Shown: one piece after another, positions 28,604-45,408 of the stretch
How the letters are laid out: each line of letters begins with the position of its first letter
How positions within the stretch are numbered: position 1 is the stretch's first letter
Assembly (NCBI GenBank): GCA_045651865.1
Contig: JAZRTC010000021.1
Location: 2,065 to 66,064, forward strand
Reading direction: 5' to 3'
Origin: Acutalibacteraceae bacterium
GTDB lineage: Bacteria > Bacillota > Clostridia > Oscillospirales > Acutalibacteraceae
Length of the DNA: 64,000 bases
Program-made: the position numbers and the translations under genes
Notes under the pieces: generated by a model
What the model saw: the letters and a program-made list of their open reading frames with translations, nothing else
What the model was told of the DNA's origin: nothing
Database searches by the model: none

Positions 28604-28606
28604 AGT

Positions 28607-30767: not shown

Positions 30768-30872
30768 TTAAAGTCACCACACTAATAAAGGTTATATTTT
30801 AACAATTTTTTCACTGCATCCTCATTATACCACCGCATAACACCTCCCGTCAATCAACAGATAGTTGCTACG

Positions 30873-31433
30873 GGCATATACTGGTAAAAGCAACTTGTAA
30901 GGAGTGAGGGTGTTGTATAAACGAGCGAAATCACAACGATTGCCCGATGCGGTCGCGGTGTTGAACGGAGCGGGGGCAAACAGTGCCGTTCACGGCGTGG
31001 TGCGGTTCTTTCAGCGACCAAACGGTGTGCTTGTAGAGGTGATGTTTGACGGTCTTCCGCAAACGGCAAGACAATGCGAGCAACCGATTTTCGGCTTTCA
31101 TATTCACGGCGGCCCGTCCTGCACAGGAAATGCTACGGATGCGTTTACCGATGCAGGCACACATTATAATCCTCACATGTGTCCGCATCCGTATCACGCG
31201 GGCGATCTGCCGCCGATCTTTGGTGTGAACGGTAAGGCATATATGGCGTTCCTGACTGACCGTTTCACCGTGCGCGATGTGATCGGCAAAACGATCATCC
31301 TGCACGACAAACCCGACGATTTCACCACCCAGCCGAGCGGCAACGCCGGCAACAAAATCGCCTGCGGCATCATCGGCCCTGTCAGACGATAATACAGAAA
31401 ACAGCCGTGGGATTGCTCCCACGGCTGTTTTGT
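30873..31433 (+). repeat. sodC cassette, copy 2 (direct repeat of 22060..22619)
   Basis: See copy 1. An identical run covers 31284-31415 (copy 1: 22471-22602). Confidence 0.85.
30910..31392 (+). CDS. sodC: Cu/Zn superoxide dismutase family protein (copy 2)
   Basis: Same ligand motifs as copy 1. I count 18 aa differences out of 162 by manual alignment. Confidence 0.8.
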   Translation: MLYKRAKSQRLPDAVAVLNGAGANSAVHGVVRFFQRPNGVLVEVMFDGLPQTARQCEQPIFGFHIHGGPSCTGNATDAFTDAGTHYNPHMCPHPYHAGDLPPIFGVNGKAYMAFLTDRFTVRDVIGKTIILHDKPDDFTTQPSGNAGNKIACGIIGPVRR

Positions 31434-31438
31434 TATCA

Positions 31439-33124
31439 TTATGCGGTTTTTTTCGGGTGGATAATATCCTTATTAAGCTCGATATATTCGAGAGCTTCCT
31501 TGTAAGCATCCTTGAATTTGAACACAATCTCAATATCGCCGCCTTCGTGGACATAGATCACATCCACAAGCTCCGTCAGGAGCGGGCGGGTGAGACGATC
31601 GACATTGCCGCGTCGCTTGAAATGCGCGACAAAATCGTTTTCCTCCGAGAAGCCACATAAAAAATCCGCAATGGACTTTTCAAGCGAGGAGATGTGCTTG
31701 TCATGTTCTTCGAGTCTTACGGACAATTCGGCTTTAAGCCGCGTATATTCCTCTTTGGTGATGTCGCCGTTCTTCCAGTCGGGGTACAGTTCTGTCATCA
31801 GCCGCATCGTTTTCTCACGGGCTTGCCGCCTAGTGCGAAGCGCCGACTCCAGATGTGACGACTGGGTGCGCCGCTGATCGTTTTGCCGAAGCTGTGCCAG
31901 TACCTCATCAAACTCGATCGCCACGGCAATCAGATTCTGAATGGTTTTCAGCACCGCCGTTTCCAATTTGTCGATGCGAATGGTGTGGTTGGTGCAGGCA
32001 GTCGTGCTCATTTTGCGTCGGGTGGCACAGCGATAGTAATGATAGGTGCCGTAATCGTGGGTGTTGGTTTTCTTGTTCATACCGCGTCCGCAGTCGGCAC
32101 ACCGCACCAGCCCCGAAAACAAATCGACTTGCTTTGTCTTCGGTGAGCGGCGGATGCCGCTGTTTAAGAGCGCCTGTACTTTCGCAAAATCCTCCCGCGA
32201 GATGATGGGCTCGTGCGTGTTTTCGACGATGATCCAATCCTCTTTCGGCATATCCTTGATCTGCTTGATTTTATACGAAATTTTTTCCCGCTTGCCTTGC
32301 ACCATATCCCCGCAGTACATTTGATTTTCCAGAATGCGGCGGATGGAACGGTCGCTCCACAGCGCCTTGCCGTCAGGGTTGCTCGGCTGACGGTATTTCT
32401 GTCCCTGTAGCGCTTTGTAGACGGACGGGCAGGGGATACCGTTGCCGTTGAGACTTTTTGCGATGGCGATGATCGCCTTACCGCCGAGGTATTCCTCGAA
32501 GATGCGTCGCACAATGGGCGCCGCACCCTCGTCAATAATCAGCTTGTGATGATCGTTCGGATCCTTCAGATACCCATAGGAGGCATGCGAGCCGATAAAT
32601 AATCCTTGTTGGCGATTGAGATTAAGCGTGCCGCGAATATTCACGGATGTTGTCGCAGAGATACTCTCGTTGATGACATTTGTCACACCCAGCATAATGC
32701 AGTTGGTCATTGCATTGCCGTTTTGCGACATGCTGTCGTGATTATTGTTTATGGCTATAAAGCGCACGCCGTGTCGCGGAAAGAAATCGTCAATATATTG
32801 TCCTGCCAGCGAGGCGTTTCTGCCGAAGCGGGACAAATCTTTCACGATGACACAGTTGATGATCCCACATCGGATATCCTCAATCATGCGTTCAAACGAT
32901 GCGCGCACGAAGTTCGTGCCCGACCAGCCGTCATCGATGTAAAAATCGACGATCTCCATATCGGGATGATCTTTCACATAAGCTTTGATGATCTCGCGCT
33001 GACTCGCGACCGAGTCGGATTCTGCCTTATCGCCATCCTCTTTTGATAAGCGAATGTAAGCGGCCGCATGCCATTTCACTTCCACAGGCTCACTCGGCAG
33101 AAAGTCGGTATATTTACTTTTCAT
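31439..33124 (-). mobile_element. Large serine recombinase (resolvase domain, recombinase domain, DUF4368-like C-terminus)
   Basis: AAYIRLSKEDGDKAESDSVASQREII (catalytic Ser region), the Zn-ribbon-like CADCGRGM...YYRCATRR, a coiled coil, and a C-terminal LLTELVDVIYVHEGGDIEIVFKF. GGAGG RBS at M10. Confidence 0.85.
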
Positions 33125-33212
33125 AGTGTGTACCTCCGTAAACGGCGGCACACAAATCCTTCGAATTCATCTTAACATAACCACCGCCTTTCTGTCGAGT
33201 GGTAAATTTTTG

Positions 33213-33488
33213 TCAGCTTGCGTTTAACGCATTCACAAGCACATCCTGAAACGGCTTCTCGCCGCTAAAGGATATCGTTACCGCTGTACCATCTACTTGA
33301 AATTGGTACGGGTTGTTTCCTTTCAAAAACCGCAACATACGCTCAGTCGGTACTGCTTGATTTGCACTATGATTCTCCGCCCCCATAGCCCCACACTCCG
33401 TTTCAAAAGGAGTGTGGGCAGAGGAGATGGAATTTAATCCAACCGCGTTATTCATCGTCATTGTCAAGAATCGGTGTTTCTTTAACAT
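33213..33488 (-). CDS. Small element-associated protein, unknown function
   Basis: 91 aa with a GGAGGA RBS. It is adjacent to the recombinase, as small accessory ORFs often are in such elements. Confidence 0.45.
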   Translation of the reverse strand: MLKKHRFLTMTMNNAVGLNSISSAHTPFETECGAMGAENHSANQAVPTERMLRFLKGNNPYQFQVDGTAVTISFSGEKPFQDVLVNALNAS

Positions 33489-33551
33489 CGATGTAATATC
33501 CTCCGTTAAATGCGAAAATATTGTCGACCAGTTTGATGAAACCGACCTCGT

Positions 33552-33854
33552 TCAAGTACAAAAATATTGGTCGAACTCTTCATCGTTGCATCCTACGGTA
33601 TCTTGAACGAACATGAGACATTCCTCGTGGAGGTATTGCTCGCCGTAGATGCTTGTGATGCGGTATGGGTTGTCCGACATCATCAGCACGTGTCGCACCT
33701 CGGAAACTGAGAAGTGAATGAAGGCCTGTCCGTTCTCGCCACGGAATTTCGGGTTGTTTACCGAAAGCAACAGGCGGCTGTACATGAGTGCGTACAGAAC
33801 AACACACTCGGGATGGTATTTGCCGATCATCTCGGCAGGGGCTTTGAAAAACAC
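33552..33854 (-). CDS. RepA_N-like (replication-initiator N-terminal-like) short protein
   Basis: GTG start with an AAGGAGG RBS. FFKAPAEMIGKYHPECVVLYALMYSRLLLSVNN...FIHFSVSEV resembles the Firmicute RepA_N pattern, but the protein is only 100 aa. Confidence 0.35.
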   Translation of the reverse strand: MFFKAPAEMIGKYHPECVVLYALMYSRLLLSVNNPKFRGENGQAFIHFSVSEVRHVLMMSDNPYRITSIYGEQYLHEECLMFVQDTVGCNDEEFDQYFCT

Positions 33855-34008
33855 AGCCTGTTCCTCCTTAAAATTGTTTTATATATGTAAATCGGTTTAC
33901 ACCGAATTGTTGTCGAACCAGGTTGGTTTCCAACAGAAGGTACGCCGTTTTGCGCCGGTTGCCCTACGCGGCTTTTCGATAAAAACCACGATGATAATCT
34001 GCGACTAT

Positions 34009-34087
34009 ATAGATAGATCACATAGATGGATGATAGATAGATCGTCATCTAAGGGGAGGAGGAGAAATAACCCCCTCTACTATCTAT
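34009..34087. repeat. Iteron-like short repeats
   Basis: ATAGATAGATC at 34009 and 34033, ATAGATGGA at 34022, and an inverted ATAGATAG at 34080-34087. Confidence 0.5.
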
Positions 34088-34161
34088 TGGACATAAAAGT
34101 ACCATTTGTTCGAGTTTTTGAGAAAATAATTATAATTATTTGAAAACGGGAGCAAAAGCAG

Positions 34162-34197
34162 GCATCCCTGCCGTCAAAAAGATGACGGCAGGGATGC
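34162..34197 (-). terminator. Hairpin terminator
   Basis: Perfect 15-bp stem GCATCCCTGCCGTCA / TGACGGCAGGGATGC. Confidence 0.65.
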
Positions 34198-34222
34198 TGA
34201 TAGCGGATCTTTTCAAAGAGTG

Positions 34223-34525
34223 TTAAAAGCCGAGCAAGCAGAGCTTTTGAAGCAATCGAGCGATACGGTCAGAGTATGTGCTTTTGGGGATGTTGAGCGA
34301 ATCGGCAATCTCACGAACAGACTTGCCGTCAGAGAGCATTTCTGCGATATAAAGCCCGTTAGGGTCAATCGCTTGGATAGCTTCCACAAGTTCTTGGTGA
34401 CACATATTGCTAAGCACAATGTCAGCCGGATTGCAATTATCTTGTGCGATATCCCAACCGATGTTTTCCATCAGTTCTTCGATCGAGCTGATATCGCCTT
34501 CGATGTGATGGAGCATGTGCCGCAA
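34223..34525 (-). CDS. Sigma-70 region-4-like HTH protein, possibly the 3' part of a frameshifted gene
   Basis: LYIAEMLSDGKSVREIADSLNIPKSTYSDRIARLLQKL. An upstream 26-codon ORF with an RBS (ATG at 34676, MNNIVLIDRTPIEVTEDVYRVYYHPT) sits in another frame. Confidence 0.45.
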   Translation of the reverse strand: MRHMLHHIEGDISSIEELMENIGWDIAQDNCNPADIVLSNMCHQELVEAIQAIDPNGLYIAEMLSDGKSVREIADSLNIPKSTYSDRIARLLQKLCLLGF

Positions 34526-35590
34526 TCGCCTTTACAGGTGCGCCAATTGGAATTGGAGCAACGACCGTGACGAAGGGCATATGTATGGGTGGTTCAGGTG
34601 GGATGGTAGTACACGCGATAGACATCTTCGGTCACTTCGATGGGAGTTCGGTCGATGAGAACAATGTTGTTCATAAATCAGTACCACCTAAGGTTCAACA
34701 AGGTGTATGGGTGGATGTGTCAGCGGAGCAGCTCGCTCGGCTGACGATGTTTAATACTGCATGGGACTCACCTTCTTTCTGGACAAAAAAGACCCGCTGA
34801 CAGCCATCGCGTGCGACTTACGCAATGACTCTCAGTGGCCTTTTTGTTTGTGTATTCAATTTGAGGATGGGACGAATGTCGCATAGATGCTGCACTTAAA
34901 TGGCGAGAATGTACCATTTAAGTAATAGATTAGTTAATGCAGCATCAAGATAATATCCTCATAATATATTATAAAGAAAAATAAATTTCATGTCGCAAGT
35001 AGAGTAGAAAAATTATCAAGGGGATGCAATCCCAGCCGCTTTACATAATTATTTCACCGTCAGGAGTACATCATATTTACATAAATTCGATTTTGGTTTA
35101 TGCGTTTGATGGGGCGTGAGTGTATGCGTGGCTTACATCACGCACAGCATCGCTACGCGAATGATGAAAAGAAAATGACTTTGACATATACCCGTAAAAA
35201 ACAAAAAGCCGCTCTGTTTTCAACCGAAAACAGTTCTGCTTTGTCTCGATTTAAGCATTTTTGCTACAAGAGAGGGATGTTTTGCAAACAGAAGGGTGGA
35301 GGAAAAAGTACATACTTACGGGACAAAAAGGACGATTTTAGTTTATTACTAAAGTGGTTTATAAGAGGATATAGGGATGATTCAAGTGTACCTCCTAGAT
35401 TGTTTTCAACAGGATATGTTCTTGTTTTCAATGTGTTGTTGAATTGTTTTCATCGATGTCTTCGATAGATTTCGATGTAGGTGAAAAAGAAACTGTGAAT
35501 AATTGTTGATGCTAAAAAGATGCTGGAGATGAACTGGATATACAAAGGAATCGGCAGATTATGTCTTCTATTGTAAATATTATGATGTTC

Positions 35591-35619
35591 TTGTTTTTCG
35601 TGAAAGAAAAATGTATAAT
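35591..35619 (+). promoter_or_regulatory. Sigma-70-type promoter of the TIR operon
   Basis: TTGTTT, 17-nt spacer, TATAAT. It lies 41 nt upstream of the ATG at 35660. Confidence 0.45.
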
Positions 35620-35659
35620 ATATATCAATAGTACAGTATGGAGTGGAGGTAAAGTGTTA

Positions 35660-37228
35660 ATGAAAGAGAAAAATATATTTATATCATATAAAAATGATGG
35701 TGAAGGTAGTAATTTTGCCGCAAGAATATGTTCGGATTTAGAGAGAATGGGACATAATGTGTATTTTAATCCTAATGAGCAACGCGCAGGGAATTTTCCT
35801 GATAGATTAAAAAATGCGGTTGAAGCATGTAAGGATTTCTTGTTAATAGTAACCCAATCATGCCTCGACCAGTTAATCAAGCATGATAAAATTGATTGGG
35901 TAAGAGAGGAATTACTTACTGCATATAGAAACGACAAAAATATAATTCCTCTTCTTATGCCAGGAGTTTCTATGCCTAAGGATAAGGAAGATATGCCTGA
36001 AGATTTAAGGTTTTTGCCGGATACGGATGCAGTAAGCATATTTGAACCATATGACAAGTCTCCATTTGAAGTTATTCTAAAATGGATGAAATCTATTCCT
36101 TCTAATGGTGAATTGTATAGAACGACATACCAAAGTAACCCTGATTATAGTATCGAAAAAGATTTTGAAGATGCGCAAAAACGGGCCAAAAGTGGAGATT
36201 ACGAAGCGATGTATGAGATTGCCACTTTTTATATGTATGGATTTGGAGCACCTAGAGCAAGTGAAGCAAGTTTTTGGTATCGTGAAATAGTGAAGTGTGA
36301 TAATGTGCAATTAAGATCATTAGCATTAAACCGTTTGGCAGGAATGTATTTTTCGGGGGAGCTTCCTGGAGAATCCCAATCGTTTGAAAAAGCTTTTGAA
36401 TTGAGGGAAGAAGCGGCAAAATATGATAAAAGTGCAGCAATGTTAAATGCGGCAATGAGGCGTATTGGATCAGGATGCAAGTTTGATTATCAATCGATAG
36501 ATCAGGGCTTTAAATCTCTAACTGTTGCGGATAGTATTGCGATAAAAGAGCAGGCGGAATTCTATGTAGCTTATGGAAAATTTCAAGATGCAATTGATTT
36601 ATTGAAAAAAATACAGGGAAAGATGCCTGCTGCAGCGTATCAGCTAGGAATGTTATATAAATTAGGTGTTCAAACACAGCCGCCAATGCCGGATTGTTAT
36701 AGGGCGGAAAGTTGCTTTCGGCGAGCGGTCAACAAGGGACATGTATTGGCTGCATATGAATTAGGAATGCTTTACTACAATCCTCCGCTGGGTGATTTTG
36801 AAAAGGATTTTGAACAAGCTGTGCAGTATTTTAAAATTGCTGCAGATGCGGGAATTCCTGAAGCACAATATAAACTTGGTTGGATGTATCGATTTGGACT
36901 TGGATGTGAAATCAATTATGAAAAAAGTATAAAATACGAACTGATGGCAGCCAATCAAGGTCATATAGGTGGTTATGGACAGCTTGCATATTTGTATCAA
37001 ATTGAAGGGTTTATCAATTATCAAAAAGCATTTAAATACGCAAAATCAGCAGCAGATGCTGGTCATGCGCACGGAGCCTTTCTATGTGGGAATTTTTTGT
37101 TTTTTGGAAGAGGATGTGAAGCGAATGAAACTGAAGCATTACGGTATTATCATTACGCGTATCAACACGGTTCTTATGAAGCAAAAATTATGATAGATAA
37201 GATCGAACGGAGGCGAAATAATGGGTAA
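35660..37228 (+). CDS. TIR domain - Sel1-like repeat protein (paralogue 1)
   Basis: GGAGTGGAGG RBS. N-terminal TIR (IFISYKNDGEG...DFLLIVTQ...IDWVREELLTAY). The C-terminal roughly 350 aa are Sel1 repeats (AVQYFKIAADAGIPEAQYKLGWMYRFGLGCEINYEKSIKY...). Confidence 0.8.
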   Translation: MKEKNIFISYKNDGEGSNFAARICSDLERMGHNVYFNPNEQRAGNFPDRLKNAVEACKDFLLIVTQSCLDQLIKHDKIDWVREELLTAYRNDKNIIPLLMPGVSMPKDKEDMPEDLRFLPDTDAVSIFEPYDKSPFEVILKWMKSIPSNGELYRTTYQSNPDYSIEKDFEDAQKRAKSGDYEAMYEIATFYMYGFGAPRASEASFWYREIVKCDNVQLRSLALNRLAGMYFSGELPGESQSFEKAFELREEAAKYDKSAAMLNAAMRRIGSGCKFDYQSIDQGFKSLTVADSIAIKEQAEFYVAYGKFQDAIDLLKKIQGKMPAAAYQLGMLYKLGVQTQPPMPDCYRAESCFRRAVNKGHVLAAYELGMLYYNPPLGDFEKDFEQAVQYFKIAADAGIPEAQYKLGWMYRFGLGCEINYEKSIKYELMAANQGHIGGYGQLAYLYQIEGFINYQKAFKYAKSAADAGHAHGAFLCGNFLFFGRGCEANETEALRYYHYAYQHGSYEAKIMIDKIERRRNNG

Positions 37229-38834
37229 GGATATTTTTATATCATATAAAAACGACGGTGAAGGAAACAACTTCGCTGCAAGAATATGTTCTGATTTAGA
37301 AAAGCTGGGATACGAAGTATATTACAATCCGAATGAACAGCATGCAGGTAGTTTCCCCGAAAGATTAAAAAATGCAGTGGAATCCTGCAAAGATTTTTTG
37401 CTAATTGTCACACAGCCTTGTCTTGAACAGCTAATGAGACATGACAAAATCGATTGGGTTAGAGAAGAACTACTTACAGCATATAGAAGTAAAAAAAACA
37501 TAATACCTCTTATTATGCCAGGAGTTTCTATACCTAAAGACAAAGATGATATGCCTGAAGATCTAAGTTTCTTACCAGACAAAGACGCTGTATGTGTATT
37601 TGAACCTTATGATAAATCTCCGTTTGAGAATATATTAAGTTGGATGAAGTCATTACCGGTTAACATGGAAAAATACAAAGATATTTTTCAGAGTAACAGC
37701 GACTATGATGTCAACGATGATTTTGCCACCACATTAAAGCGTGCTGAGTCTGGTGATGAAAAGGCTATGTATGAAATCGCCAATATGTATTTCTATGGAT
37801 ATACCAATGGAGACGGACAATCCAAAAGAGATTTTTCAAAAGCATATTCGTGGTTTACAAGATTATCTAATAGTGATAGTCCTTATGGCGTTTTTGCTAC
37901 CTCTATGTTAGGAAAAATGCACTATCGTGGTGTTGTTCCAAAAGAGAAGCAATCCTTTGTAAAATCATTTGAGTGTCACAAGAAAGCGGCACAAGGTGGT
38001 AGTGAATATTCAAAACAACAGTATGCATTTATGTTGTCAATGGGTATGGGCTGTGACTTTGATTATGATGCCGCAGAGCAACAGTACCTATCTGCAATGG
38101 AACACGGTGATAATGTTTCAATAAGTGGACTGGCGAAGTTCTACATTCAGTATGGCGAATTCAAAAAAGCAGAAAATTTATATAAAAACATTGTTGATAC
38201 ATACCCTATGGCAGCCTATGAATTAGGGTGTCTATATATGAAGGGATTATTGAGCGAAGATAAGAAACCCGATTGTTTTAAGGCGGCTTTCTATTTTCAA
38301 CACGCAATTAACACAGGCAAAGGTGATATGGATGCGCGTTATCAATTGGGTCTTCTGTATTTCAGAGGTACCAACGGTTTTATAAATGATTATAAAATTG
38401 CACAAGAAAACTTTGAGATTGCAGCAGATAGCGGTCATGTTGCCTCGGCGTACATGATTGGTTATATGTATGAACACGGACATGTTGAGTTGAATTTGGA
38501 GAAAGCTATACATTATCATGCGTTGGCGGCGGATCATGGTCATGTGTTGTCACCAACTCATTTAGCAATTCTCTATCAGTTGCCTGAACATCAAAACTAT
38601 CATAAGGCGATAAGGTATGCAAAACTTGCTGCGAGCTATGGCGAAAAAGAGGGTGAATTTGTATACGGTAATCTTCTTTTCTTTGGCAGAGGATGCAAAC
38701 CGGATAATAACGAAGCTTATAAAATGTACAAGCGCGCTCTTGAACACGGGTGTGATCAAGCCGCATTTATGATTGAGCGAATTGAATCAAGACAATTGGC
38801 CGATGATATGGGAAATCACAAAATTGGTTATTGA
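37221..38834 (+). CDS. TIR domain - Sel1-like repeat protein (paralogue 2)
   Basis: Overlaps paralogue 1 by 8 nt. Its TIR region is about three-quarters identical to paralogue 1 by eye, and it has Sel1 repeats (AIHYHALAADHGHVLSPTHLAILY...). Confidence 0.8.
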   Translation: MGKDIFISYKNDGEGNNFAARICSDLEKLGYEVYYNPNEQHAGSFPERLKNAVESCKDFLLIVTQPCLEQLMRHDKIDWVREELLTAYRSKKNIIPLIMPGVSIPKDKDDMPEDLSFLPDKDAVCVFEPYDKSPFENILSWMKSLPVNMEKYKDIFQSNSDYDVNDDFATTLKRAESGDEKAMYEIANMYFYGYTNGDGQSKRDFSKAYSWFTRLSNSDSPYGVFATSMLGKMHYRGVVPKEKQSFVKSFECHKKAAQGGSEYSKQQYAFMLSMGMGCDFDYDAAEQQYLSAMEHGDNVSISGLAKFYIQYGEFKKAENLYKNIVDTYPMAAYELGCLYMKGLLSEDKKPDCFKAAFYFQHAINTGKGDMDARYQLGLLYFRGTNGFINDYKIAQENFEIAADSGHVASAYMIGYMYEHGHVELNLEKAIHYHALAADHGHVLSPTHLAILYQLPEHQNYHKAIRYAKLAASYGEKEGEFVYGNLLFFGRGCKPDNNEAYKMYKRALEHGCDQAAFMIERIESRQLADDMGNHKIGY

Positions 38835-39270
38835 TTTGTCATCCCCCCTTTTGTTATTCTTCGCAAAACCAAGATGTTGTGGATATGCTTGTTACCATTG
38901 CAATTAGCAATGGTATTAATTGTTGGATCGCATCATCGAGCATTGAAGCCGGTTCATATGCAAAACAAATTGTTCAAGGTGTTAAAGAAGCTCGTGCTTT
39001 TGTCGTGATTGTAAGCGAAAGCTCAATTTTATCTCCATACATAAAAACGAACTTGATATTGCTACGAGCAGAATCAAGGTCGGTTTGATAATTATGCCAT
39101 TCAAGATAGACGGCGCTGAACTCGATGATGAGTGCAGATACTATTTGGGCAGACAAGAATTCTTCATGGGTGAAAAGCCTCCTATTGATGAGCGAATTGC
39201 GCAGTTTGTCAATAGTATAAAAAAGTTTTGGAGTATTAGACAAAATAAGGACCACAATGAAAGGAGTTAG
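38831..39270 (+). pseudogene. TIR-only gene interrupted by a 1-nt frameshift in an A5 tract
   Basis: Track ORFs 38831..39088 and 39085..39270 join into one TIR (FCYSSQNQDVVDMLV..NGINCWIA...FVVIVSESSILSPYIK|NELDIATS..IIMPFKIDGAELDDE) if the A-run at 39043-39047 were A6. Confidence 0.7.
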
Positions 39271-39273
39271 TTT

Positions 39274-40437
39274 ATGAGTAATGATAATCAGGAACTACTC
39301 GAACTTTTTAAAAAATACCGCACTGGCGAAATATCTGAAAAAGATTTAACAGAAGAACAGTGCTTGCTTATCGGACAGATGTACGATAAACAGATACGCG
39401 AATTGAAAGCGAGTAATCGAAGCCGTCATTCTGCCGTTGAAGCCTGGGTTGAAACGCAAAGTGAAAACGATGAAACATTAATTGAAATCAAAAATATGTT
39501 GTCATCACTCGCCAAAACAACAGCAGGAAAAACTATAGATAAGTTCTATTTGAAGGAAAACAAGGCGGGTGTAGGTCTTGATTTGTATGATGGTGTAAAT
39601 TATCTCGCGACATATTTATCTTATGAGGACTGCATATGCGACATGGCGTTTCACTGGTCAATTGTTGATTTTGATACGATAGTTAATATGTTTATGCGTA
39701 AAAATATTTCAGTACAGCCGCCATACAAATACAGAGCAGTTGTTTCGGAGTTGTATTGTATAACAGAATCGGTACATAGATATGTGTTTTATGGGAACTC
39801 TTTGACTGCACTCTTAGAAAGAATAGAAACTGTAGAAAAAAGAAGCATTTCGTTTCCCGATAAGTTTATTTTTGGCGTACAAGGGGTTGCCATTTATTTA
39901 TTTGATGAAAATGAGTTAAAATACCAGTTTTGGCTCGGCGGAAGTGCGTTTCATAGCATAGCAGATGTAATAAAGGCAGCTCATGATAAAAATAAGTTTA
40001 TACCCAATGCAATTTTGCAAGAGTTTTCGGAGCTAAATAATGTAGATGTTTTTATTTCTCATAAAAGTCAAGATTTCTTACAAGCGAAAAAAGTGTACGA
40101 TCATTTGATTTCTCAAGGAATAGCAACATTTCTTTCTGAAATGTCCTTGCCGGCTATATCAAATGCTGATTATTCTGCCGAGATCGATAAAGCATTAGAT
40201 GCAACAAAAAACATAATTATCATTGCGACAAATCGAGAAAATGTTCTTTCTGGGTGGGTTCAATATGAGTGGACAGCTTTTGCCAACGAAAAACGCTCTG
40301 GAAGAAAGGACGGCAATATAATTACGCTCATTGATGAAAACATGCCTATTACAGAATTGCCAATTTTGTTAAGGCAATTCGAAGTAATACCAATGAATGA
40401 GTTTGAATCTGTCAAAAAATTTTTAAAATTATCCTAA
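39274..40437 (+). CDS. Unknown N-terminal domain fused to a C-terminal TIR domain
   Basis: AAAGGAG RBS. C-terminal TIR (VDVFISHKSQDF...NIIIIATNRENVLSGWVQYEWTAF). The N-terminal roughly 255 aa have no motif I recognise. Confidence 0.75.
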   Translation: MSNDNQELLELFKKYRTGEISEKDLTEEQCLLIGQMYDKQIRELKASNRSRHSAVEAWVETQSENDETLIEIKNMLSSLAKTTAGKTIDKFYLKENKAGVGLDLYDGVNYLATYLSYEDCICDMAFHWSIVDFDTIVNMFMRKNISVQPPYKYRAVVSELYCITESVHRYVFYGNSLTALLERIETVEKRSISFPDKFIFGVQGVAIYLFDENELKYQFWLGGSAFHSIADVIKAAHDKNKFIPNAILQEFSELNNVDVFISHKSQDFLQAKKVYDHLISQGIATFLSEMSLPAISNADYSAEIDKALDATKNIIIIATNRENVLSGWVQYEWTAFANEKRSGRKDGNIITLIDENMPITELPILLRQFEVIPMNEFESVKKFLKLS

Positions 40438-40451
40438 TAAGAACTACACTC

Positions 40452-40487
40452 AAAAAGATCAGACTGATTGCAGTCTGGTCTTTTTTT
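40452..40487 (+). terminator. Rho-independent terminator ending the TIR operon
   Basis: Stem GATCAGACTG / CAGTCTGGTC (one G-U pair) followed by T7. Confidence 0.8.
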
Positions 40488-40650
40488 GTTCCCCCCTTCG
40501 TTTTTCAAATTTTAAATGAAATATAATGTCATTGTCAGAAACACAAGGAAAAACACAAAACACCACCCCCTACAAATGTGGAATTTGATATGTGCTAATA
40601 TGTTCCTGTAAGCTAAAAAGAAAATTCGAAATTCAAAGGAGAATACAGAA

Positions 40651-40947
40651 ATGAAAAACAGAGTAATTGTAACGAAGGCAGTCAAAGAAGTAAAGGAAAA
40701 CGATAGACTTGTTCAGAAGGAGTTCCTTGAATTTCATCTGAAAAATAAAGAAGGAACCTTTTGGCTATTTACGCAGCCGTTTTCAAAAGGCGTATACGAG
40801 TGGTTTAAGGATGGTCGTGCAGAGGGCGAAATTTTAAGTTTTGCGAAGTGGGATCGCAACAAGCGTCTTAACGATACGATTAACCGTATTCCTCGTGAAA
40901 TCCGCTATGTACAGAAGTATGTTATGGAGGTGGAACGTGCGGCTTAA
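40651..40947 (+). CDS. Hypothetical protein (98 aa)
   Basis: AAAGGAG RBS and no recognisable motif. Confidence 0.55.
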   Translation: MKNRVIVTKAVKEVKENDRLVQKEFLEFHLKNKEGTFWLFTQPFSKGVYEWFKDGRAEGEILSFAKWDRNKRLNDTINRIPREIRYVQKYVMEVERAA

Positions 40948-41108
40948 TTGGAATGGCCACCCCCTGACTCTCTACAAATAAATATGGGCTTATAATAGAA
41001 GACACAGTAGTGAAAGGAGTACACTTCTATGAACCAAACACGTGATAAGCCTACCCACAAAAAGTAAAAAATTTATTTATCAATCAAAGAAATAAGGAGT
41101 AAATCATC

Positions 41109-41573
41109 ATGGCAAAAAGCAAAATTTTTATTAAAGTAATGTCTCTCGTCCTTGTCATCGTGACGATGTTTAGCATCACTGCTGTTTCGGCATCGGCTGC
41201 AACTTGGCGAACGGGCAACATCCCTTCGAACAATAGAGATACCGGCTACACTACGGTACGGCTAGACAGCACGAAAAAGGACGCTAAAATCAAGATTCAC
41301 ACCTATTACATTAATCCTTTGACACGCAAATCCAAAGAAGGTAACTCGCGTTTGTATGTAACAATGCGAGATACTAGAGGTCGTTGGATTTGGGGTGGAA
41401 ATATTGATACCGGTAGTAGAGGAAAAACTATGACTCTAGGCAGAGATCATTCGGCCTATCGAATTTATCTTAGAGAAGTTCAGTGTCCTGGCATCTGGTA
41501 TTACAGAACGTTTAACACATATCACTATCCTGACTATTGGGGTATTGAATGCACAAAGAATTGTCACATCTAA
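41109..41573 (+). CDS. Small secreted protein, unknown function
   Basis: AAGGAG RBS and a signal peptide (VMSLVLVIVTMFSITAVSASA). Confidence 0.6.
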   Translation: MAKSKIFIKVMSLVLVIVTMFSITAVSASAATWRTGNIPSNNRDTGYTTVRLDSTKKDAKIKIHTYYINPLTRKSKEGNSRLYVTMRDTRGRWIWGGNIDTGSRGKTMTLGRDHSAYRIYLREVQCPGIWYYRTFNTYHYPDYWGIECTKNCHI

Positions 41574-41621
41574 ATTAATGTGGCGGGACAGATATTCTGT
41601 CCCGCCAGAAAGGAATACATT

Positions 41622-42362
41622 ATGAAACGAATAGGAGCTTTAATATTACTATGTTGCATATTGGTGTGTGGTGTTTGCGGATGCACTAACTCTGAAGCGA
41701 ACAAGACCGCACTTGATTATGTTGATCTTTGCGATTATAAGTCCTTAGAAGTTCCCGCAGATGAATACATGGTATCAGATACAGATCTTTCTACTGCAAT
41801 TCAAATGCACATGAGTTCTTTGAATATTGAAGCTTCTGAACTTTCTGACAGCATTGCAGTTGAATATTTCAACTGTAAAAATGCAAACGATGTCAGAGAA
41901 ATGATTAAAAAAGAAATCATTGAAAATCGCTTTTATGAAGCAGCGCGTGATATGATTCTTGAATCCTCTTTAATTATCGGCTTTCCGGAAGAAAGTAAAA
42001 CATATGTAAACAATATGGTTTCTGCGCAAAAGGCATTCGCTGAAGCCGAAGGGATTAGTTTAAGTGAATATCTTGATAGTTATTACGAAATGACTGAGGA
42101 AGAATTCCGAGAAGCTGCTCTTTGTGGATACGGCGACATAATGATTCTCAAAGCAATCGCTGAAAAAGAAAAATACGAAATCAACTCAGAAGAGCGCCGT
42201 TCTCTAATTGAATCGACTGCAGAGCATATAGGAATGTCTACGGAGGAAACTCTTAACATATATGGCGAAGAGTATTTTGATTGTCTTTTATATGAAGAAT
42301 TTTTGAAAGAACTAATTCTTGACATTTATTCTGATGAAGTTCTCGCAAAAGTCAAAAGTTGA
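41622..42362 (+). CDS. Lipoprotein with trigger-factor C-terminal/SurA-like chaperone region
   Basis: Start at M15 and a lipobox (VCGC). The helical region resembles the trigger-factor C-domain (EIIENRFYEAARDMILES...ILKAIAEKEKYEI). Confidence 0.5.
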   Translation: MKRIGALILLCCILVCGVCGCTNSEANKTALDYVDLCDYKSLEVPADEYMVSDTDLSTAIQMHMSSLNIEASELSDSIAVEYFNCKNANDVREMIKKEIIENRFYEAARDMILESSLIIGFPEESKTYVNNMVSAQKAFAEAEGISLSEYLDSYYEMTEEEFREAALCGYGDIMILKAIAEKEKYEINSEERRSLIESTAEHIGMSTEETLNIYGEEYFDCLLYEEFLKELILDIYSDEVLAKVKS

Positions 42363-42536: not shown

Positions 42537-42548
42537 ACATCTTGTCAA

Positions 42549-42567
42549 ATAATAATTACATTATTAT
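42549..42567. promoter_or_regulatory. Candidate operator palindrome
   Basis: Perfect palindrome ATAATAAT-tac-ATTATTAT between the -10 and the RBS of the HTH gene. Confidence 0.45.
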
Positions 42568-42586
42568 ACAGAAAGGAAACATATTT

Positions 42587-42802
42587 ATGGCTGTATCTTA
42601 CAACAAATTATGGCACCTGCTACTTGACAAAAAAATGAAGAAGAAAGATTTCCAAGAAGCAGCAAAGTTAACGCAACATGCTATGAGAAAACTGAGCAAA
42701 GATGAAGCTGTAACTACTGATACACTTGCGAAAATATGCAGGTATCTAGATTGCTCGGTTGACGATATTATGGAAGTGTTACCAGAGGAAAAAGAAAAAT
42801 AA
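42587..42802 (+). CDS. XRE/Cro-type HTH transcriptional regulator (71 aa)
   Basis: Start at M16 after GAAAGGAAAC. MAVSYNKLWHLLLDKKMKKKDFQEAAKLTQHAMRKLSKDEAVTTDTLAKICRYLDCSVDDIMEV. Confidence 0.75.
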   Translation: MAVSYNKLWHLLLDKKMKKKDFQEAAKLTQHAMRKLSKDEAVTTDTLAKICRYLDCSVDDIMEVLPEEKEK

Positions 42803-42837: not shown

Positions 42838-45408
42838 ATGGGTGGAATTACACAAGCCATTAAAATAGCGAAAAGAGATTTCAGCAAAAAACTATATTTT
42901 AAAGAAGATATAGAAAAATTGATTTTTGACCTAGAAAATTGCATTAAAGACAAAAAAACAGATACTGAACAAACTGTGAGAATGAAAATCCTCAGAATGT
43001 TTGCTTCTTATGGCATTGAACTCGAAAAGAACTTAACTCCAGAACAATATCGCGAGCAATTGGAGCTGCATTACATTCAACCTATAAAAAATTTTCCTGA
43101 AATGTGTTGGAACGAAATGATGAAGTTCAACTTGGCGTACAAGACACCTAAGGAATACATGGAACGACTTGTTAATGAATTGGTATCTCCAGAATACAAT
43201 TTGCCTGATTCTCCAATTCGTTTAAAAATTCTTAAGCAAATTCTCGGTAAATTAGACTGTTTAAGAGGTACGAGTTTTCAAAGCAAAAAGTTAATCAATA
43301 TTATCGAAAATGATTACGATGGTATTGTTAGCAATATTGGCGATGAAATATTTAAAAATTATTTGACACCAATTCAGCCTAGCAAATATTTACGAGTGTT
43401 GCTTGATGTGTATGGTAACATTCTTTACCGCAATGACGAAAAAGATGATGATTTAACATTACTAGTTTCCAAGCATAATAATTCAGTTAAAGAGCAAACC
43501 GCAAGACAATTATTGCAAATTATCCATCCTAATAACCCACAAGCAAAAATAGACACTAATGGTAAAGCGATTGGATCTTTTAGCATAGAAGATTTTGATA
43601 GATCTTTGGTTGAACAAATTAAAAGTTACTTAGATGGAGTTAGAATCGCCTTTAAGGAAAAATATGATGAAGAACTGAAAAACATCGAACTTCTTGAGCA
43701 AGAAAAACATATCCGGCAGTTTCCAATAGTGATGCAATTTGTTGTCGAACACAAGTTATGTGAACATCTCAAGACAAAACGATTTGTTGCTCTTGTGAAA
43801 TCACATATGGGAATCGATGTAGATGAAGATAATGTGGATTGTAGTTTGATAGAAAGTATAATGAATTACTCGCTTTCCGCAGACTCAAAAGAAAAATTCA
43901 ATAATTATTTAATCAAACAAATCGCAAAGCTATTTGAAAAGGCAGACGATAAATCGAAAGAAGAATATAGTTCATTTGTATCAGCATTAAAAGAAATCGA
44001 AATTAGTTGTAATCGAGTTCAGTACAAAGCGATAGAGTTCTTTATTCAAAAAAAGGGTCTGCATGAGCAATTACTAACGAGTGAAATTAAAGACATAGTA
44101 GAGAGTCAACTAGAAAAAAAGCAAGAGGTTGAACTTTCGAATCATGAATTGATGGATCATCTGGCATTGGTAGCAAATGAGAATCCTGATGTTTTGAAAA
44201 AAGTTATCCCATTGTTAATTAAAAGAATAAAAGAGTTTAGGACGGAAACAAATCAAAGTTTTGCTAAAGGTTTAGATAATGTAAGCGATAGAGCGTCTAT
44301 CCCAGAGATCTTGAAAATTTCAAATGATTTAGCCGAAGGTAAATATAAGAGAGGTTCTGAAATGAAAGAAATCTTATATTTGTTTGCGTTCGCCTTTGAT
44401 ATGTCTATAAGCTTTGAAAATAATGAGACAAATACTTTAAGAGATGTCAAAAAAAATCTGTTCGAAGATTTTTATTGCGACAATATAATTCGTTATATCA
44501 ACGATTACCAGTTGAATGGTGTTTATGAAGAGCCATCAGGTATAACGATACAGTTTAAGAATTTTGTAGAAATTATTTATTTGTATTGGTTAAATAAAGA
44601 CAGCAGAACATATTCTCCAGCAGAAAAATATCTTTCTGCGAATGCAATGATCAAGAAAATAGTTTCTAAGATTAAATCTGCCGAGAAGGAAATAGACAAA
44701 TCAACTTCCCAATTAGGGAAAAAATATTTTGAAGCAAAAATGCTTACTGATAAAAAAGCCTTAGGTACCGAAGTCTATAGAAACTTTATAAGAACAGATA
44801 GTCAGGACGACGGCAATAAGCATTTGAAAATTGACAACTACTTGGGGCTATCAGAAGAAGAGTTTTTAGAAATTATTCTTCAGAACTATGATATTGATAC
44901 GACAATAAAATATACAACATCTGCTGCATTTGAAAATGAAAACTATCAAGAATCCGCTGAGTCTAATTTTGGGAAGTTGATAGATGAACTCAAAATGGAA
45001 ACAGATGGCACTGGATTTATTCCAAATTGTTATTCATTAGAGTTTTATGAAACTGTTTTTGATGAACTATTTGCCAAGAAAGAATATGACGTCAAATTAC
45101 ACACCCAACTTTCTACTTTGGTAAAAAAACTTAATGAACAAATGAAGCAGGTTTTAAGTGAGGCAGAGGTTGAAGGTTATAATCTCTTTACTCGAACAAG
45201 ATTTATGTACTTGTTTTATAATCACTTTGTACTGAGTCGTATCGGCGAGAAATACAACGAGACTTTTGATGATTTTTATGATGAGTATTGTGAGTCATTA
45301 AATAGGAAATTAGAAGATTGCTCATATCAACTTTTTTCTGAGAAGAACCTTATCGATATGATGTTGCTTTACTCTGCATTTATAACATTAAGGACAGAAG
45401 ACAATTAA
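42838..45408 (+). CDS. Large (856 aa) K/E-rich helical protein, no recognisable domain
   Basis: AAAGAGGT RBS and an uninterrupted ORF. I found no P-loop, nuclease or TM motif. Confidence 0.7.
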   Translation: MGGITQAIKIAKRDFSKKLYFKEDIEKLIFDLENCIKDKKTDTEQTVRMKILRMFASYGIELEKNLTPEQYREQLELHYIQPIKNFPEMCWNEMMKFNLAYKTPKEYMERLVNELVSPEYNLPDSPIRLKILKQILGKLDCLRGTSFQSKKLINIIENDYDGIVSNIGDEIFKNYLTPIQPSKYLRVLLDVYGNILYRNDEKDDDLTLLVSKHNNSVKEQTARQLLQIIHPNNPQAKIDTNGKAIGSFSIEDFDRSLVEQIKSYLDGVRIAFKEKYDEELKNIELLEQEKHIRQFPIVMQFVVEHKLCEHLKTKRFVALVKSHMGIDVDEDNVDCSLIESIMNYSLSADSKEKFNNYLIKQIAKLFEKADDKSKEEYSSFVSALKEIEISCNRVQYKAIEFFIQKKGLHEQLLTSEIKDIVESQLEKKQEVELSNHELMDHLALVANENPDVLKKVIPLLIKRIKEFRTETNQSFAKGLDNVSDRASIPEILKISNDLAEGKYKRGSEMKEILYLFAFAFDMSISFENNETNTLRDVKKNLFEDFYCDNIIRYINDYQLNGVYEEPSGITIQFKNFVEIIYLYWLNKDSRTYSPAEKYLSANAMIKKIVSKIKSAEKEIDKSTSQLGKKYFEAKMLTDKKALGTEVYRNFIRTDSQDDGNKHLKIDNYLGLSEEEFLEIILQNYDIDTTIKYTTSAAFENENYQESAESNFGKLIDELKMETDGTGFIPNCYSLEFYETVFDELFAKKEYDVKLHTQLSTLVKKLNEQMKQVLSEAEVEGYNLFTRTRFMYLFYNHFVLSRIGEKYNETFDDFYDEYCESLNRKLEDCSYQLFSEKNLIDMMLLYSAFITLRTEDN

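What the first reader, a model, noticed from the sequence alone, without database searches (positions are those of the whole stretch)
35591..40487. Tight operon of four TIR-domain genes, two fused to Sel1-like repeats, with no recognisable Thoeris effector
One promoter and one terminator bracket four genes. The junctions are an 8-nt overlap, a 4-nt overlap and a 3-nt gap.
- Two genes are paralogous TIR-SLR proteins (555/537-aa track ORFs). Their TIR parts are about three-quarters identical by eye, and their repeat arrays have diverged.
- One is a short TIR-only gene.
- One is a 387-aa protein with an unknown N-terminal domain and a C-terminal TIR.

All four keep the W/S-x-x-E-type glutamate context associated with NAD-cleaving bacterial TIRs (WVREEL, KNELD, WVQYEW). 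I see no SIR2, Macro, SLOG, STING or SAVED partner in the operon.

TIR-SLR is not an architecture I can assign to a described system. The repeat arrays could act as sensors that drive TIR oligomerisation.
Basis: partly seen in the sequence, partly recalled or inferred. Interest (0 to 1): 0.8.

Follow-up and report, generated by a model that had tools for sequence, protein, structure and literature searches.

The report
Tandem TIR immune genes on ICE
Three intact genes and one broken relic encoding SARM1-like, probably NAD-cleaving TIR domains sit in a row on a conjugative element of a gut Clostridia bacterium; they look like independent phage-sensing suicide enzymes left over from a larger, fast-changing array, not a fixed four-gene system.

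Summary
The cluster is real, but it is three intact TIR genes plus one relic, not four genes. g1 (35660-37228) and g2 (37221-38834) are TIR + Sel1-like-repeat (SLR) proteins. g4 (39274-40437) has an unknown N-terminal domain and a TIR. "g3" is a 5'-truncated, frameshifted remnant left by an 8.9-kb deletion relative to a sibling element.

The TIR of the TIR-SLR family is SARM1-type. Its catalytic Glu (g2 E83) is invariant in 116 homologues.

No Thoeris-type effector is recognisable. In 50 species-representative loci, TIR-SLR has no conserved neighbour and is the only TIR gene in 42.

Sibling ICEs carry arrays of at least five to eight TIR genes with different content. These include TIR-FtsK, TIR-LRR and TIR-TIR.

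Within an element lineage the TIR domains are homogenised (79-95% identity). SLR modules instead form types shared across lineages, with a sharp switch near residue 150.

Best reading: these are autonomous, ICE-borne abortive-infection NADase sensors that work like SpbK or DSR2. It is a new variant of a known kind. I found no literature or PADLOC entry for TIR-SLR. Function is inferred, not shown.

The parts
35591..35619 (+). Putative sigma-70-type promoter: TTGTTT, 17-nt spacer, TATAAT, 40 nt upstream of the g1 ATG
   Evidence: Read directly from the sequence. The consensus scan did not list it because the -35 hexamer matches only 3 of 6. Inferred, not tested.
35660..37228 (+). g1: TIR-SLR protein, 522 aa (SLR type 1). 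N-terminal SARM1-type TIR and C-terminal Sel1-like repeat solenoid.
   Evidence: Pfam TIR_2 1.5e-11 and Sel1 2.5e-29. The start is set by GGAGG and by alignment with homologues. Orthologues lie in L161 and L163.
37221..38834 (+). g2: TIR-SLR protein, 537 aa (SLR type 2). Overlaps g1 by 8 nt, suggesting translational coupling.
   Evidence: Pfam TIR_2 and Sel1. AF2 pLDDT 93.2, with TIR at 1-141 and helical solenoid at 164-532. SARM1 TIR matches by sequence at 8e-15 to 2e-16 and by fold at TM 0.87. E83 aligns with SARM1 E642 and is invariant in 116 sequences. The same overlap junction occurs in L161 and L163.
38854..38858 (.). Deletion or recombination junction. Relative to sibling ICE locus L080, 8.9 kb is missing here: five genes plus the 5' two-thirds of a 365-aa N-domain+TIR gene.
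   Evidence: By blastn, window 38214-38854 matches L080 1-640 and window 38855-42317 matches L080 9582-13034. Alignment A5.
38855..39270 (+). g3 relic (pseudogene): the C-terminal TIR of a 365-aa gene. It lacks its own start, RBS and intact beta-A strand. It has a 1-nt deletion at 39042/39043 and a second A-run length difference near 39215.
   Evidence: Split ORFs, three-frame translation, 88.8% identity to L080 9582-9953, DNA alignment.
39274..40437 (+). g4: 387-aa protein. N-terminal helices (1-85), a conserved alpha/beta domain of unknown fold (about 95-250), and a C-terminal TIR (257-387) with the invariant SGWVxYEW motif (E332).
   Evidence: Pfam TIR_2 9.1e-11. Family of 54 clusters. Alignment A3. 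AF2 pLDDT 80. Foldseek matches only the TIR part. No PDB sequence hit. Own RBS AAAGGAG.
40452..40487 (+). Intrinsic terminator: 15-bp stem with a 4-nt loop, then a U-run. It also reads as a terminator on the minus strand.
   Evidence: RNA fold -20.8 kcal/mol, z = -5.04, 0 of 200 shuffles as stable. Listed for the minus strand.
40651..42362 (+). Conserved ICE backbone directly downstream of the array: a 98-aa protein, a 154-aa secreted protein and a 260-aa lipoprotein with a trigger-factor-C-like domain. Not part of the TIR system, but it marks the array's insertion site.
   Evidence: 99%, 95% and 77% identical to L080 genes in the same order. The same module follows the arrays in L080 and L162.
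31439..33151 (-). Large serine recombinase. Together with the T4SS coupling proteins at 58870-60498 and 62006-63304, it marks the carrier as an integrative conjugative element.
   Evidence: Pfam Resolvase, Recombinase and Zn_ribbon_recom. TrwB_AAD_bind and T4SS-DNA_transf. GC drops from about 0.5 to about 0.35 at 35 kb.

Best explanation
The locus is a small, recently eroded version of a hypervariable array of TIR-domain immune genes. The array is cargo on an integrative conjugative element of a gut Oscillospirales (Clostridia) bacterium. Each intact gene (g1, g2, g4) most likely encodes an autonomous sensor-effector.

Proposed mechanism (inferred):
1. A non-catalytic domain binds a phage- or MGE-derived protein. 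In g1 and g2 this is the roughly 370-residue Sel1-like repeat solenoid. In g4 it is the unknown N-terminal alpha/beta domain.
2. Binding clusters the SARM1-type TIR domains into head-to-tail assemblies and completes their NADase active site (Glu83 in g2, Glu332 in g4).
3. NAD+ is depleted and the infected cell dies or arrests (abortive infection).

No separate effector is needed. g1 and g2 form a translationally coupled pair with different SLR 'specificities' on near-identical TIRs.

Shown:
- the domain architecture
- the SARM1-type TIR with conserved catalytic residues
- ICE carriage
- the lack of a conserved partner
- array turnover
- TIR homogenisation within element lineages

Inferred: NADase activity, the trigger, and the abortive-infection outcome.
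For: 1. The TIR is catalytic-type.
   - A profile of 116 TIR-SLR proteins hits SARM1/TIR-1 TIR at about 1e-26. g2 alone hits at 2e-16 to 8e-15, and no other PDB TIR reaches 0.01.
   - g2 WVREE83 aligns with SARM1 WVHKE642. g2 'AGSF45' aligns with the SARM1 BB-loop 'AGKF603' (SARM1 residue numbers and the BB-loop label are from my own knowledge of SARM1, not from the tool output).
   - F45, R81 and E83 are invariant.
   - The AF2 TIR superposes on SARM1 TIR with TM 0.87 and rmsd 2.8.
   - g4 keeps an invariant W328/E332.
2. The genes look autonomous.
   - In 50 species-representative loci the best non-TIR-SLR neighbour cluster occurs in only 8 loci.
   - TIR-SLR is the sole TIR ORF in 42 of 50.
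   - g4 homologues occur alone.
3. The neighbourhood is immune-like.
   - The top neighbour families are TIR_2, NB-ARC and AAA_16, with AbiEii-type AAA_21 also present.
   - TIR-NB-ARC-TPR STAND genes lie directly beside TIR-SLR in L008, L015, L025 and L045.
   - mad3, AbiEi and PD-T4-6-like kinase hits also occur.
4. The genes are modular.
   - Sibling ICEs differ by whole TIR genes.
5. There is a functional precedent.
   - SpbK on ICEBs1 is a single TIR NADase activated when a phage portal protein clusters its TIRs (PMC12847820).
6. The proteins start directly at the TIR beta-A strand with no signal peptide (sequence).
Against: - No biochemical or phage data exist for any family member.
- The SLR region is fairly conserved family-wide: 46% mean pairwise identity against 57% for the TIR. 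It is not hypervariable, as might be expected of a fast-evolving phage sensor.
- Strong PADLOC hits among immediate neighbours are few.
- Tight co-transcription and TIR homogenisation among co-resident paralogues could mean the proteins work together rather than autonomously.
- PADLOC 2023 and Pfam predate the newer Thoeris effector types. An unrecognised effector therefore cannot be excluded.
Confidence: 0.55

Rival explanations
1. The locus is a Thoeris-like signalling system. The several TIR proteins act as ThsB-type sensors that make a cADPR-isomer or related signal. That signal activates an effector that is either unrecognised or encoded elsewhere, on the ICE backbone or in the chromosome.
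For: - Several diverse TIR genes side by side are typical of Thoeris. Five papers in the searched library mention 'multiple ThsB'.
- Weak ThsB-model hits for g1 and g4.
- About 29 effector types are now proposed, many of them unknown domains (10.64898/2025.12.03.692087). Absence from Pfam or PADLOC is therefore not decisive.
- SARM1 and SpbK make cADPR as well as ADPR.
Against: - No SIR2, SLOG, Macro, TM-effector or other PADLOC hit in the operon or in the ORFs of 150 aa or more (plus one 94-aa ORF) between 41 and 57 kb that were scanned.
- No non-TIR gene is conserved next to TIR-SLR in 50 species loci. 42 of 50 loci have no second TIR gene either.
- Array composition changes between near-identical ICEs without any constant non-TIR member. 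The TPR_12 700-aa and TIR-FtsK genes of the siblings are absent here.
Confidence: 0.17
2. The array serves the ICE itself. It could act in inter-MGE competition or anti-defence. For example, TIR-fold enzymes might destroy the recipient's TIR-derived signals, deplete NAD+ in competitors, or act as an addiction or exclusion module.
For: - The arrays sit at a fixed site of a conjugative element, next to the recombinase end and conserved backbone genes.
- TIR-fold proteins can be cADPR hydrolases (title and abstract of PMC13455253).
- An SprT-like gene follows the array in L074.
Against: - Family members also lie in loci with no recognised recombinase or transfer gene nearby, and g4 homologues lie next to uvrB.
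- Co-location with STAND/NLR-like and Abi genes points to host defence.
- The catalytic motif is that of NAD+-cleaving SARM1.
Confidence: 0.1
3. These are eukaryote-directed Tcp-like effectors. TIR plus Sel1-like repeats, both 'eukaryote-like' interaction modules, would be used by a gut commensal to interfere with host TLR/MyD88 signalling or host NAD+.
For: - SLR proteins such as LpnE and LceB (Legionella) and HcpC (Helicobacter) are the closest structural matches of the repeat part.
- The family appears confined to animal-gut and rumen Clostridia.
- The TIR is closest to an animal protein, SARM1.
Against: - There is no signal peptide. The proteins start at the TIR beta-A strand.
- No dedicated secretion system is linked to the family.
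- The genes travel with bacterial immune-type genes.
- SARM1's TIR is itself held to be of bacterial origin (PMC13142454), so the similarity does not imply host mimicry.
Confidence: 0.06
4. The locus is decaying cargo. The window's cluster is a non-functional remnant of a larger array and no longer does anything.
For: - An 8.9-kb deletion and a frameshifted relic lie in the middle of the cluster.
Against: - g1, g2 and g4 are full-length.
- They keep all family-invariant residues.
- They keep their RBSs and the g1/g2 overlap.
Confidence: 0.05

Closest known systems
SpbK (YddK) of Bacillus subtilis ICEBs1
   Same: - It is a single TIR-domain protein carried by an integrative conjugative element.
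- It is an NADase whose activity needs head-to-tail TIR assembly.
- It is switched on when a phage protein (portal YonE) clusters the TIRs, giving abortive infection (PMC12847820; PMC11984713).
- g4 likewise has its TIR at the C-terminus after a non-TIR region. I did not check SpbK's own domain order.
   Different: - No detectable sequence relationship. g4 has no PDB hit at E <= 1, and g2's only PDB TIR hits are SARM1/TIR-1.
- The sensor domains differ: an SLR solenoid, or an unknown alpha/beta domain.
- Here several TIR genes lie in tandem.
SARM1 / TIR-1 (animal NAD+ hydrolase)
   Same: - The TIR domain is homologous at sequence level (E 1e-26 with the profile) and at fold level (TM 0.87).
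- The catalytic Glu and the BB-loop Gly-x-Phe are conserved.
- As I recall from the SARM1 literature, SARM1 also couples the TIR to an alpha-helical repeat domain (ARM).
   Different: - There is no SAM domain. The repeat domain is SLR and lies C-terminal, not ARM and N-terminal.
- The host is bacterial and the gene is ICE-borne.
- Regulation by the NMN/NAD+ ratio is not implied.
DSR2 (SIR2 NADase fused to a helical-repeat sensor; my own knowledge, not checked here)
   Same: Same logic: one polypeptide with an N-terminal NADase and a large C-terminal alpha-helical repeat domain that binds a phage structural protein to release NADase activity.
   Different: The catalytic domain is SIR2, not TIR. 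There is no homology, and DSR2 is much larger.
Thoeris (types I-XI)
   Same: TIR-domain genes, often several diverse copies side by side. Weak ThsB model hits.
   Different: No ThsA-type or other effector gene in the operon, and no conserved non-TIR neighbour. The systematic Thoeris survey explicitly discarded standalone TIR proteins.
Bacterial TIR-STAND / TIR-NLR (Avs-like) proteins
   Same: N-terminal TIR plus a C-terminal repeat sensor (TPR or WD40). Such genes lie directly next to TIR-SLR in L008, L015, L025, L045 and L074.
   Different: g1, g2 and g4 have no NB-ARC, NACHT or other NTPase module between the TIR and the repeats (AF2 model).
BcTir/BcTpr two-gene system (bioRxiv 10.1101/2023.05.26.542521)
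   Same: It combines a TIR and a TPR-class repeat in anti-phage NAD+ metabolism.
   Different: There the TPR protein carries a non-TIR N-terminal glycosidase domain. The separate TIR protein lacks the catalytic Glu. Here an apparently catalytic TIR and the SLR are fused.

Membership tests
TIR-domain NADases (catalytic TIRs) | TIR fold | tested here: met
   Pfam TIR_2 above cut-off for g1, g2, the g3 fragment and g4. The AF2 models match SARM1, AbTir and SPARTA TIRs.
TIR-domain NADases (catalytic TIRs) | Conserved catalytic glutamate equivalent to SARM1 E642 | tested here: met
   g2 E83 aligns with SARM1 E642 and is invariant in 116 sequences. g4 E332 is invariant in 36 sequences.
TIR-domain NADases (catalytic TIRs) | NAD+ cleavage activity dependent on TIR self-association | not testable with these tools
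   Needs an enzyme assay or cryo-EM.
Sel1-like repeat (SLR) proteins | Tandem Sel1 repeats forming an alpha-solenoid | tested here: met
   Pfam Sel1 at 101-112 bits against a cut-off of 30.7. About 22 helices at 164-532 in the AF2 model. Top Foldseek hits are c5321, LceB, LpnE and HcpC.
Thoeris | TIR (ThsB) gene or genes | tested here: met
   The hits to ThsB models are only weak (E 1e-5 to 1e-6).
Thoeris | Adjacent effector gene (ThsA SIR2-SLOG, Macro-TM, or one of the other described effectors) conserved with the TIR gene | tested here: not met
   No such Pfam or PADLOC hit in the operon or the flanking ORFs scanned. No conserved non-TIR neighbour in 50 loci. Caveat: the libraries predate Thoeris types V-XI.
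Thoeris | TIR product acts as a second messenger | not testable with these tools
   Needs LC-MS and effector activation assays.
STAND / NLR-like TIR proteins (Avs, bNACHT, TIR-NB-ARC) | Central STAND NTPase domain | tested here: not met
   No NB-ARC, NACHT or AAA hit in g1, g2 or g4. Neighbouring genes in other loci do have one.
SpbK-type ICE-borne single-gene TIR defence | Carried on an ICE | tested here: met
   Serine recombinase, T4SS coupling proteins and a GC shift.
SpbK-type ICE-borne single-gene TIR defence | Sequence homology to SpbK | tested here: not met
   phmmer of g2's TIR and of g4 against all PDB chains returned only SARM1/TIR-1, or nothing. SpbK structures were published in 2025, but I did not verify that they are in the PDB copy.
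SpbK-type ICE-borne single-gene TIR defence | Single gene sufficient; activated by a phage protein | not testable with these tools
   Genomic autonomy is consistent with this but is not a test.
SARM1 family | ARM-SAM-SAM-TIR architecture | tested here: not met
   Only the TIR is shared.

The most novel reading that the evidence does not exclude
Co-resident TIR-sensor proteins of one array are kept compatible on purpose. Their TIR domains are homogenised within an element lineage, while sensor modules (several SLR types, and perhaps LRR, FtsK and others) are swapped as cassettes at a fixed junction near residue 150. Receptors with different specificities could then co-assemble into one shared TIR hetero-filament. 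This would be a bacterial multi-receptor 'TIR signalosome' built on the bacterial clade to which animal SARM1's TIR belongs.
Probability: 0.2. Interest if true: 0.8.

Novelty: new variant of a known kind. Interest (0 to 1): 0.55.

Why it matters
- The searches available to me (full-text literature, PADLOC, NCBIfam) contain no TIR + Sel1-like-repeat architecture. Yet the family has at least 258 clusters at 90% identity in animal-gut Clostridia.
- Its TIR is the SARM1 type. It therefore offers a bacterial, genetically tractable relative of a human drug target, with a different helical-repeat regulator.
- Standalone TIR proteins were deliberately left out of the latest systematic TIR survey. This class is therefore a blind spot.
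- The arrays turn over quickly: five to at least eight TIR genes in sibling ICEs, against three plus a relic here.
- TIR and sensor modules have opposite evolutionary patterns. Together these give a natural experiment on how immune receptor repertoires diversify in bacteria, reminiscent of plant NLR clusters.

Tried and rejected
- **Conserved four-gene system.** Rejected by tblastn and clustering of 50 species loci and by the TIR HMM scan.
- **g3 as a gene.** Rejected.
- **Thoeris effector hunt.** Pfam, PADLOC and NCBIfam on the flanking ORFs found none. The Metallophos gene at 52097 is 12 kb away and not linked to the family elsewhere.
- **g4 N-terminal and middle domain.** No Pfam, PADLOC, PDB-sequence, PDB-fold or BFVD match beyond the TIR. 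It remains unknown.
- **Plasmid and phage databases.** No TIR-SLR, only generic Sel1 hits.
- **BcTir/Tpr preprint.** Different architecture.
- **Source organism.** Exact look-ups gave only 'NCBI, 74,452-bp contig', with no name. Taxonomy is inferred from homologue-bearing MAGs.
- **Search with the TIR domain alone**. It returned only 33 candidates, all short TIR-only proteins or fragments. It was uninformative about alternative fusions.
- **Hypervariable SLR idea.** Family-wide, the SLR is only moderately less conserved than the TIR.
Full report
**1. What is in the sequence**

On the + strand between 35.5 and 40.5 kb there are three intact ORFs.
- g1 is 35561/35660-37228.
- g2 is 37221-38834.
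- g4 is 39274-40437.

Between g2 and g4 lie two short ORFs in different frames, 38831-39088 and 39085-39270.

Pfam gives TIR_2 + Sel1 for g1 and g2. It gives TIR_2 for the first short ORF and for residues 259-375 of g4.

g1 most likely starts at 35660, giving 522 aa.
- A GGAGG lies just upstream of that ATG.
- All homologues begin a few residues before 'DIFISYKNDGEG'.

g1 and g2 overlap by 8 nt, with GGAGG upstream of the g2 ATG. The same junction is conserved in two sibling loci.

A 15-bp hairpin plus U-run follows g4 (-20.8 kcal/mol, z = -5).

A TTGTTT-17-TATAAT promoter-like site precedes g1. I read it by eye, and the scan did not list it.

**2. The 'short TIR-only gene' is a relic**

Sibling locus L080 (GCA_965352355.1) carries a g2 orthologue 94.7% identical over the part held in the locus. 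Its g4 orthologue (P0121) is 91% identical.

Window 38214-38854 aligns to L080 1-640. Window 38855-42317 aligns to L080 9582-13034.

The window therefore lacks 8.9 kb. In L080 that stretch holds:
- a TPR_12 protein
- TIR (305 aa)
- TIR-FtsK (484 aa)
- TIR-LRR (798 aa)
- TIR (354 aa)
- the first two-thirds of a 365-aa 'N-domain + TIR' gene

The window's g3 is the 3' third of that last gene.
- Its apparent TTG start and first eight codons are g2's downstream spacer.
- It has lost a base between 39042 and 39043.
- It differs by another A-run indel near its end.

The cluster is three genes plus a pseudogene.

**3. Carrier and host**

GC falls from about 0.5 to about 0.35 at 35 kb and stays low to the end of the window.

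A large serine recombinase lies at 31439-33151. Two T4SS coupling proteins, OmpA and ClpP lie at 56-63 kb.

Sibling loci show the same 98/154/246-260-aa module right after the array. They also carry T4SS or Mob genes nearby. The carrier is therefore an ICE.

Family members come almost only from animal-gut or rumen MAGs of Acutalibacteraceae, Faecousia, Oscillospiraceae and other Clostridia. Nothing comparable is in PLSDB plasmids or GenBank phages.

**4. The TIR-SLR family**

g2 finds 258 clusters at 90% identity. The 120 best listed are mostly 520-540 aa with TIR_2 + Sel1, down to about 44% identity.

The AF2 model (pLDDT 93) shows a TIR at 1-141, a linker, and an all-helical solenoid at 164-532. 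The solenoid matches SLR proteins such as c5321, LceB, LpnE and HcpC. The TIR matches SARM1 with TM 0.87.

At sequence level the TIR is specifically SARM1/TIR-1-like.
- The profile gives E about 1e-26.
- The single sequence gives 2e-16 to 8e-15.
- No bacterial TIR structure reaches 0.01.
- g2 W79-V-R-E-E83 aligns with SARM1 W638-V-H-K-E642. The SARM1 numbering is from my own knowledge.
- E83, R81 and F45 (aligned with the BB-loop Phe of SARM1) are invariant in 116 sequences.

SARM1's TIR is regarded as bacterial in origin (PMC13142454).

PADLOC gives only weak generic TIR hits. NCBIfam gives nothing specific. The full-text library has no paper with 'TIR-SLR'. It has no paper that links TIR with Sel1 in this sense.

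**5. g4**

There are 54 clusters, with long forms (about 385-390 aa) and short forms (about 300 aa) that lack the N-terminal helices.

The TIR keeps an invariant SGWVxYEW motif (E332). The domain at about 95-250 is conserved but matches nothing by sequence or fold.

Homologues occur alone between an HTH gene and uvrB (L076/L077). They also occur inside other TIR arrays (L078, L080, L162).

**6. Is it a conserved system?**

It is not.
- In 50 species-representative loci the best non-TIR-SLR neighbour cluster occurs in 8 loci.
- g4's N-domain is absent from all of them.
- TIR-SLR is the only TIR ORF in 42 of 50.

Neighbours are enriched for immune-type families: TIR_2 7/150, NB-ARC 5, AAA_16 3, AbiEii-AAA_21 2.

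The large genes abutting TIR-SLR in L008, L015 (two copies), L025 and L045 are TIR-NB-ARC-TPR STAND proteins.

Strong PADLOC hits among neighbours are few: mad3, AbiEi and a PD-T4-6-like kinase.

**7. Arrays in close relatives**

The closest relatives carry long same-strand arrays of diverse TIR genes.

| Locus | Array content |
|---|---|
| L161 | g1-like, g2-like, TIR 327, TIR-Sel1 332, TIR-FtsK 484, TIR-TIR 256, TIR 650 (weak hit), TIR 367, TPR 704 |
| L163 | VWA-TIR, TGase-kinase, g1-like, g2-like, TPR 700, TIR 305, TIR-FtsK, TIR 461, two TIR-Sel1 of about 800 aa |
| L162 | TIR 344, TIR-SLR, TIR 305, TIR-FtsK, TIR-TIR, fragments, g4-like |
| L073 | TIR-TIR, three TIR-SLR, DUF218, TIR 465 |
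| L074 | Sel1, TIR-NACHT-WD40, two TIR-SLR, TIR 154 |

Multi-TIR runs are also frequent in Prevotellaceae and human-gut metagenome loci pulled in by the TIR motifs, for example L060, L115 and L145 with five each.

The window holds the smallest version seen.

**8. Opposite evolutionary patterns of the two domains**

Among tandem and orthologous TIR-SLR genes, the SLR parts fall into types shared across elements.

| SLR type | Members | Identity within type |
|---|---|---|
| 1 | g1, L161_1, L163_1 | 71-85% |
| 2 | g2, L161_2, L163_2, L073_b, L074_a | 87-97% |
| 3 | L162_1, L073_c, L074_b | 64-79% |

Identity between SLR types is about 40%.

The TIR parts instead group by element lineage.
- Identity is 79-95% among all window-lineage genes, whatever the SLR type.
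- Identity is 90-95% among L073_b, L073_c, L074_a and L074_b. L073_a's TIR is 69-73% identical to these.
- Identity is about 60% between the two lineages.

Codon-level profiles show the switch at residue about 150.

This pattern fits either repeated gene conversion of the 5' TIR segment among tandem paralogues or cassette exchange of SLR modules. Whether it reflects selection for compatible TIR interfaces is open.

**9. Mechanism**

The most economical reading is that g1, g2 and g4 are autonomous sensor-NADases.
- A binding domain recognises an invader protein.
- TIRs cluster.
- NAD+ is destroyed.
- The infection aborts.

The closest functional precedent is SpbK of ICEBs1, a single TIR NADase activated by the phage portal through TIR clustering (PMC12847820). 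DSR2, from my own knowledge, is the closest architectural analogue: an NADase with a helical-repeat sensor.

A Thoeris-type signalling role with an unrecognised effector is the main rival. The recent survey that expanded Thoeris to about 29 types explicitly excluded standalone TIR proteins, so this class has not been examined.

ICE-selfish (anti-defence or competition) and host-directed (Tcp-like) roles are less likely, for the reasons listed under the rival explanations.

**10. Verdict**

- Right: TIR-SLR is an undescribed fusion with a catalytic-type TIR and no Thoeris effector.
- Wrong: it is not a conserved four-gene operon.

It is best filed as a new variant of the known class of single-protein TIR NADase defences. 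It sits in a rapidly rearranging ICE-borne TIR array. All functional statements are inferences from sequence, structure prediction and context.

Noticed in passing
window 45495-49700 (+), with 42542-42802 (HTH_26) and 42838-45408 (856 aa, no hits): A 1401-aa protein has a PD-T4-6/MADS6-like Ser/Thr kinase domain (residues about 175-345) and a C-terminal PD-(D/E)xK nuclease like that of CARF_PDDEXK effectors (about 1226-1398). It is preceded by an HTH gene and an 856-aa protein with no hits. Homologues of the kinase lie within 10 kb of TIR-SLR in L035 and L045. It is probably another defence gene on the same ICE.
   Followed up: partly
window 38854/38855 versus L080 641-9581: There is an 8.9-kb indel between two ICEs that are 86-91% identical in the flanking DNA. 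It removes five genes (four of them TIR genes) and truncates a sixth. The window reads through L080's post-g2 spacer to about ...CCCTTTTG and then switches into the 365-aa gene. The exact breakpoint was not resolved more finely than about 38854-38858.
   Followed up: yes
L073, L074, L161, L162, L163 versus window g1/g2: TIR domains group by element lineage (about 80-95% identity) whatever the SLR type. SLR domains group by type across elements. The switch is sharp, at residue about 150. This suggests gene conversion or cassette shuffling at the domain boundary.
   Followed up: yes
L080 3790-5244, L161 15344-16798, L162 12654-14105, L163 11779-13233: A recurrent 484-aa TIR + FtsK_SpoIIIE ATPase fusion, and a 256-aa double-TIR protein, occur in the sibling arrays. 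Neither is present in the window. I know of no description of this TIR-FtsK architecture.
   Followed up: no
L060 (Prevotella sp. MAG), L062, L115, L125, L145, L153 (human-gut and other metagenome contigs): Runs of four to five different TIR-domain ORFs on one strand are common in Bacteroidales and other gut-metagenome contigs pulled in by the TIR motif search. Whether they have an effector gene was not examined.
   Followed up: no
window 40651-42362: A conserved three-gene module lies immediately downstream of the TIR array in the window, L080 and L162. It comprises a 98-aa protein, a 154-aa protein with an N-terminal signal/TM segment, and a 260-aa lipoprotein with a trigger-factor C-like domain. 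It looks like ICE backbone that marks a cargo hot-spot.
   Followed up: partly
window 23000-35000: A stretch of intermediate GC (0.46-0.48, with dips to 0.35-0.37 at 25-26 kb and 30-31 kb) lies between the ~0.5-0.59 GC sequence upstream (below ~23 kb) and the ICE. It holds NUDIX, uridine-kinase-like, GNAT and peptidase S51 genes, then the serine recombinase, a RepA_N fragment and a small HTH/sigma-like gene. It may be a second integrated element or the ICE's own end. The boundaries were not mapped.
   Followed up: no
window 52097-52798 and 52957-54108: A calcineurin-like phosphoesterase and a protein with a PcrA/UvrD tudor domain lie in the ICE cargo region. There is no evident link to the TIR genes.
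   Followed up: no
L073 7296-7919: A DUF218 gene is inserted between TIR-SLR paralogues. DUF218 also appears twice among TIR-SLR neighbours in the species set. Its significance is unknown.
   Followed up: no
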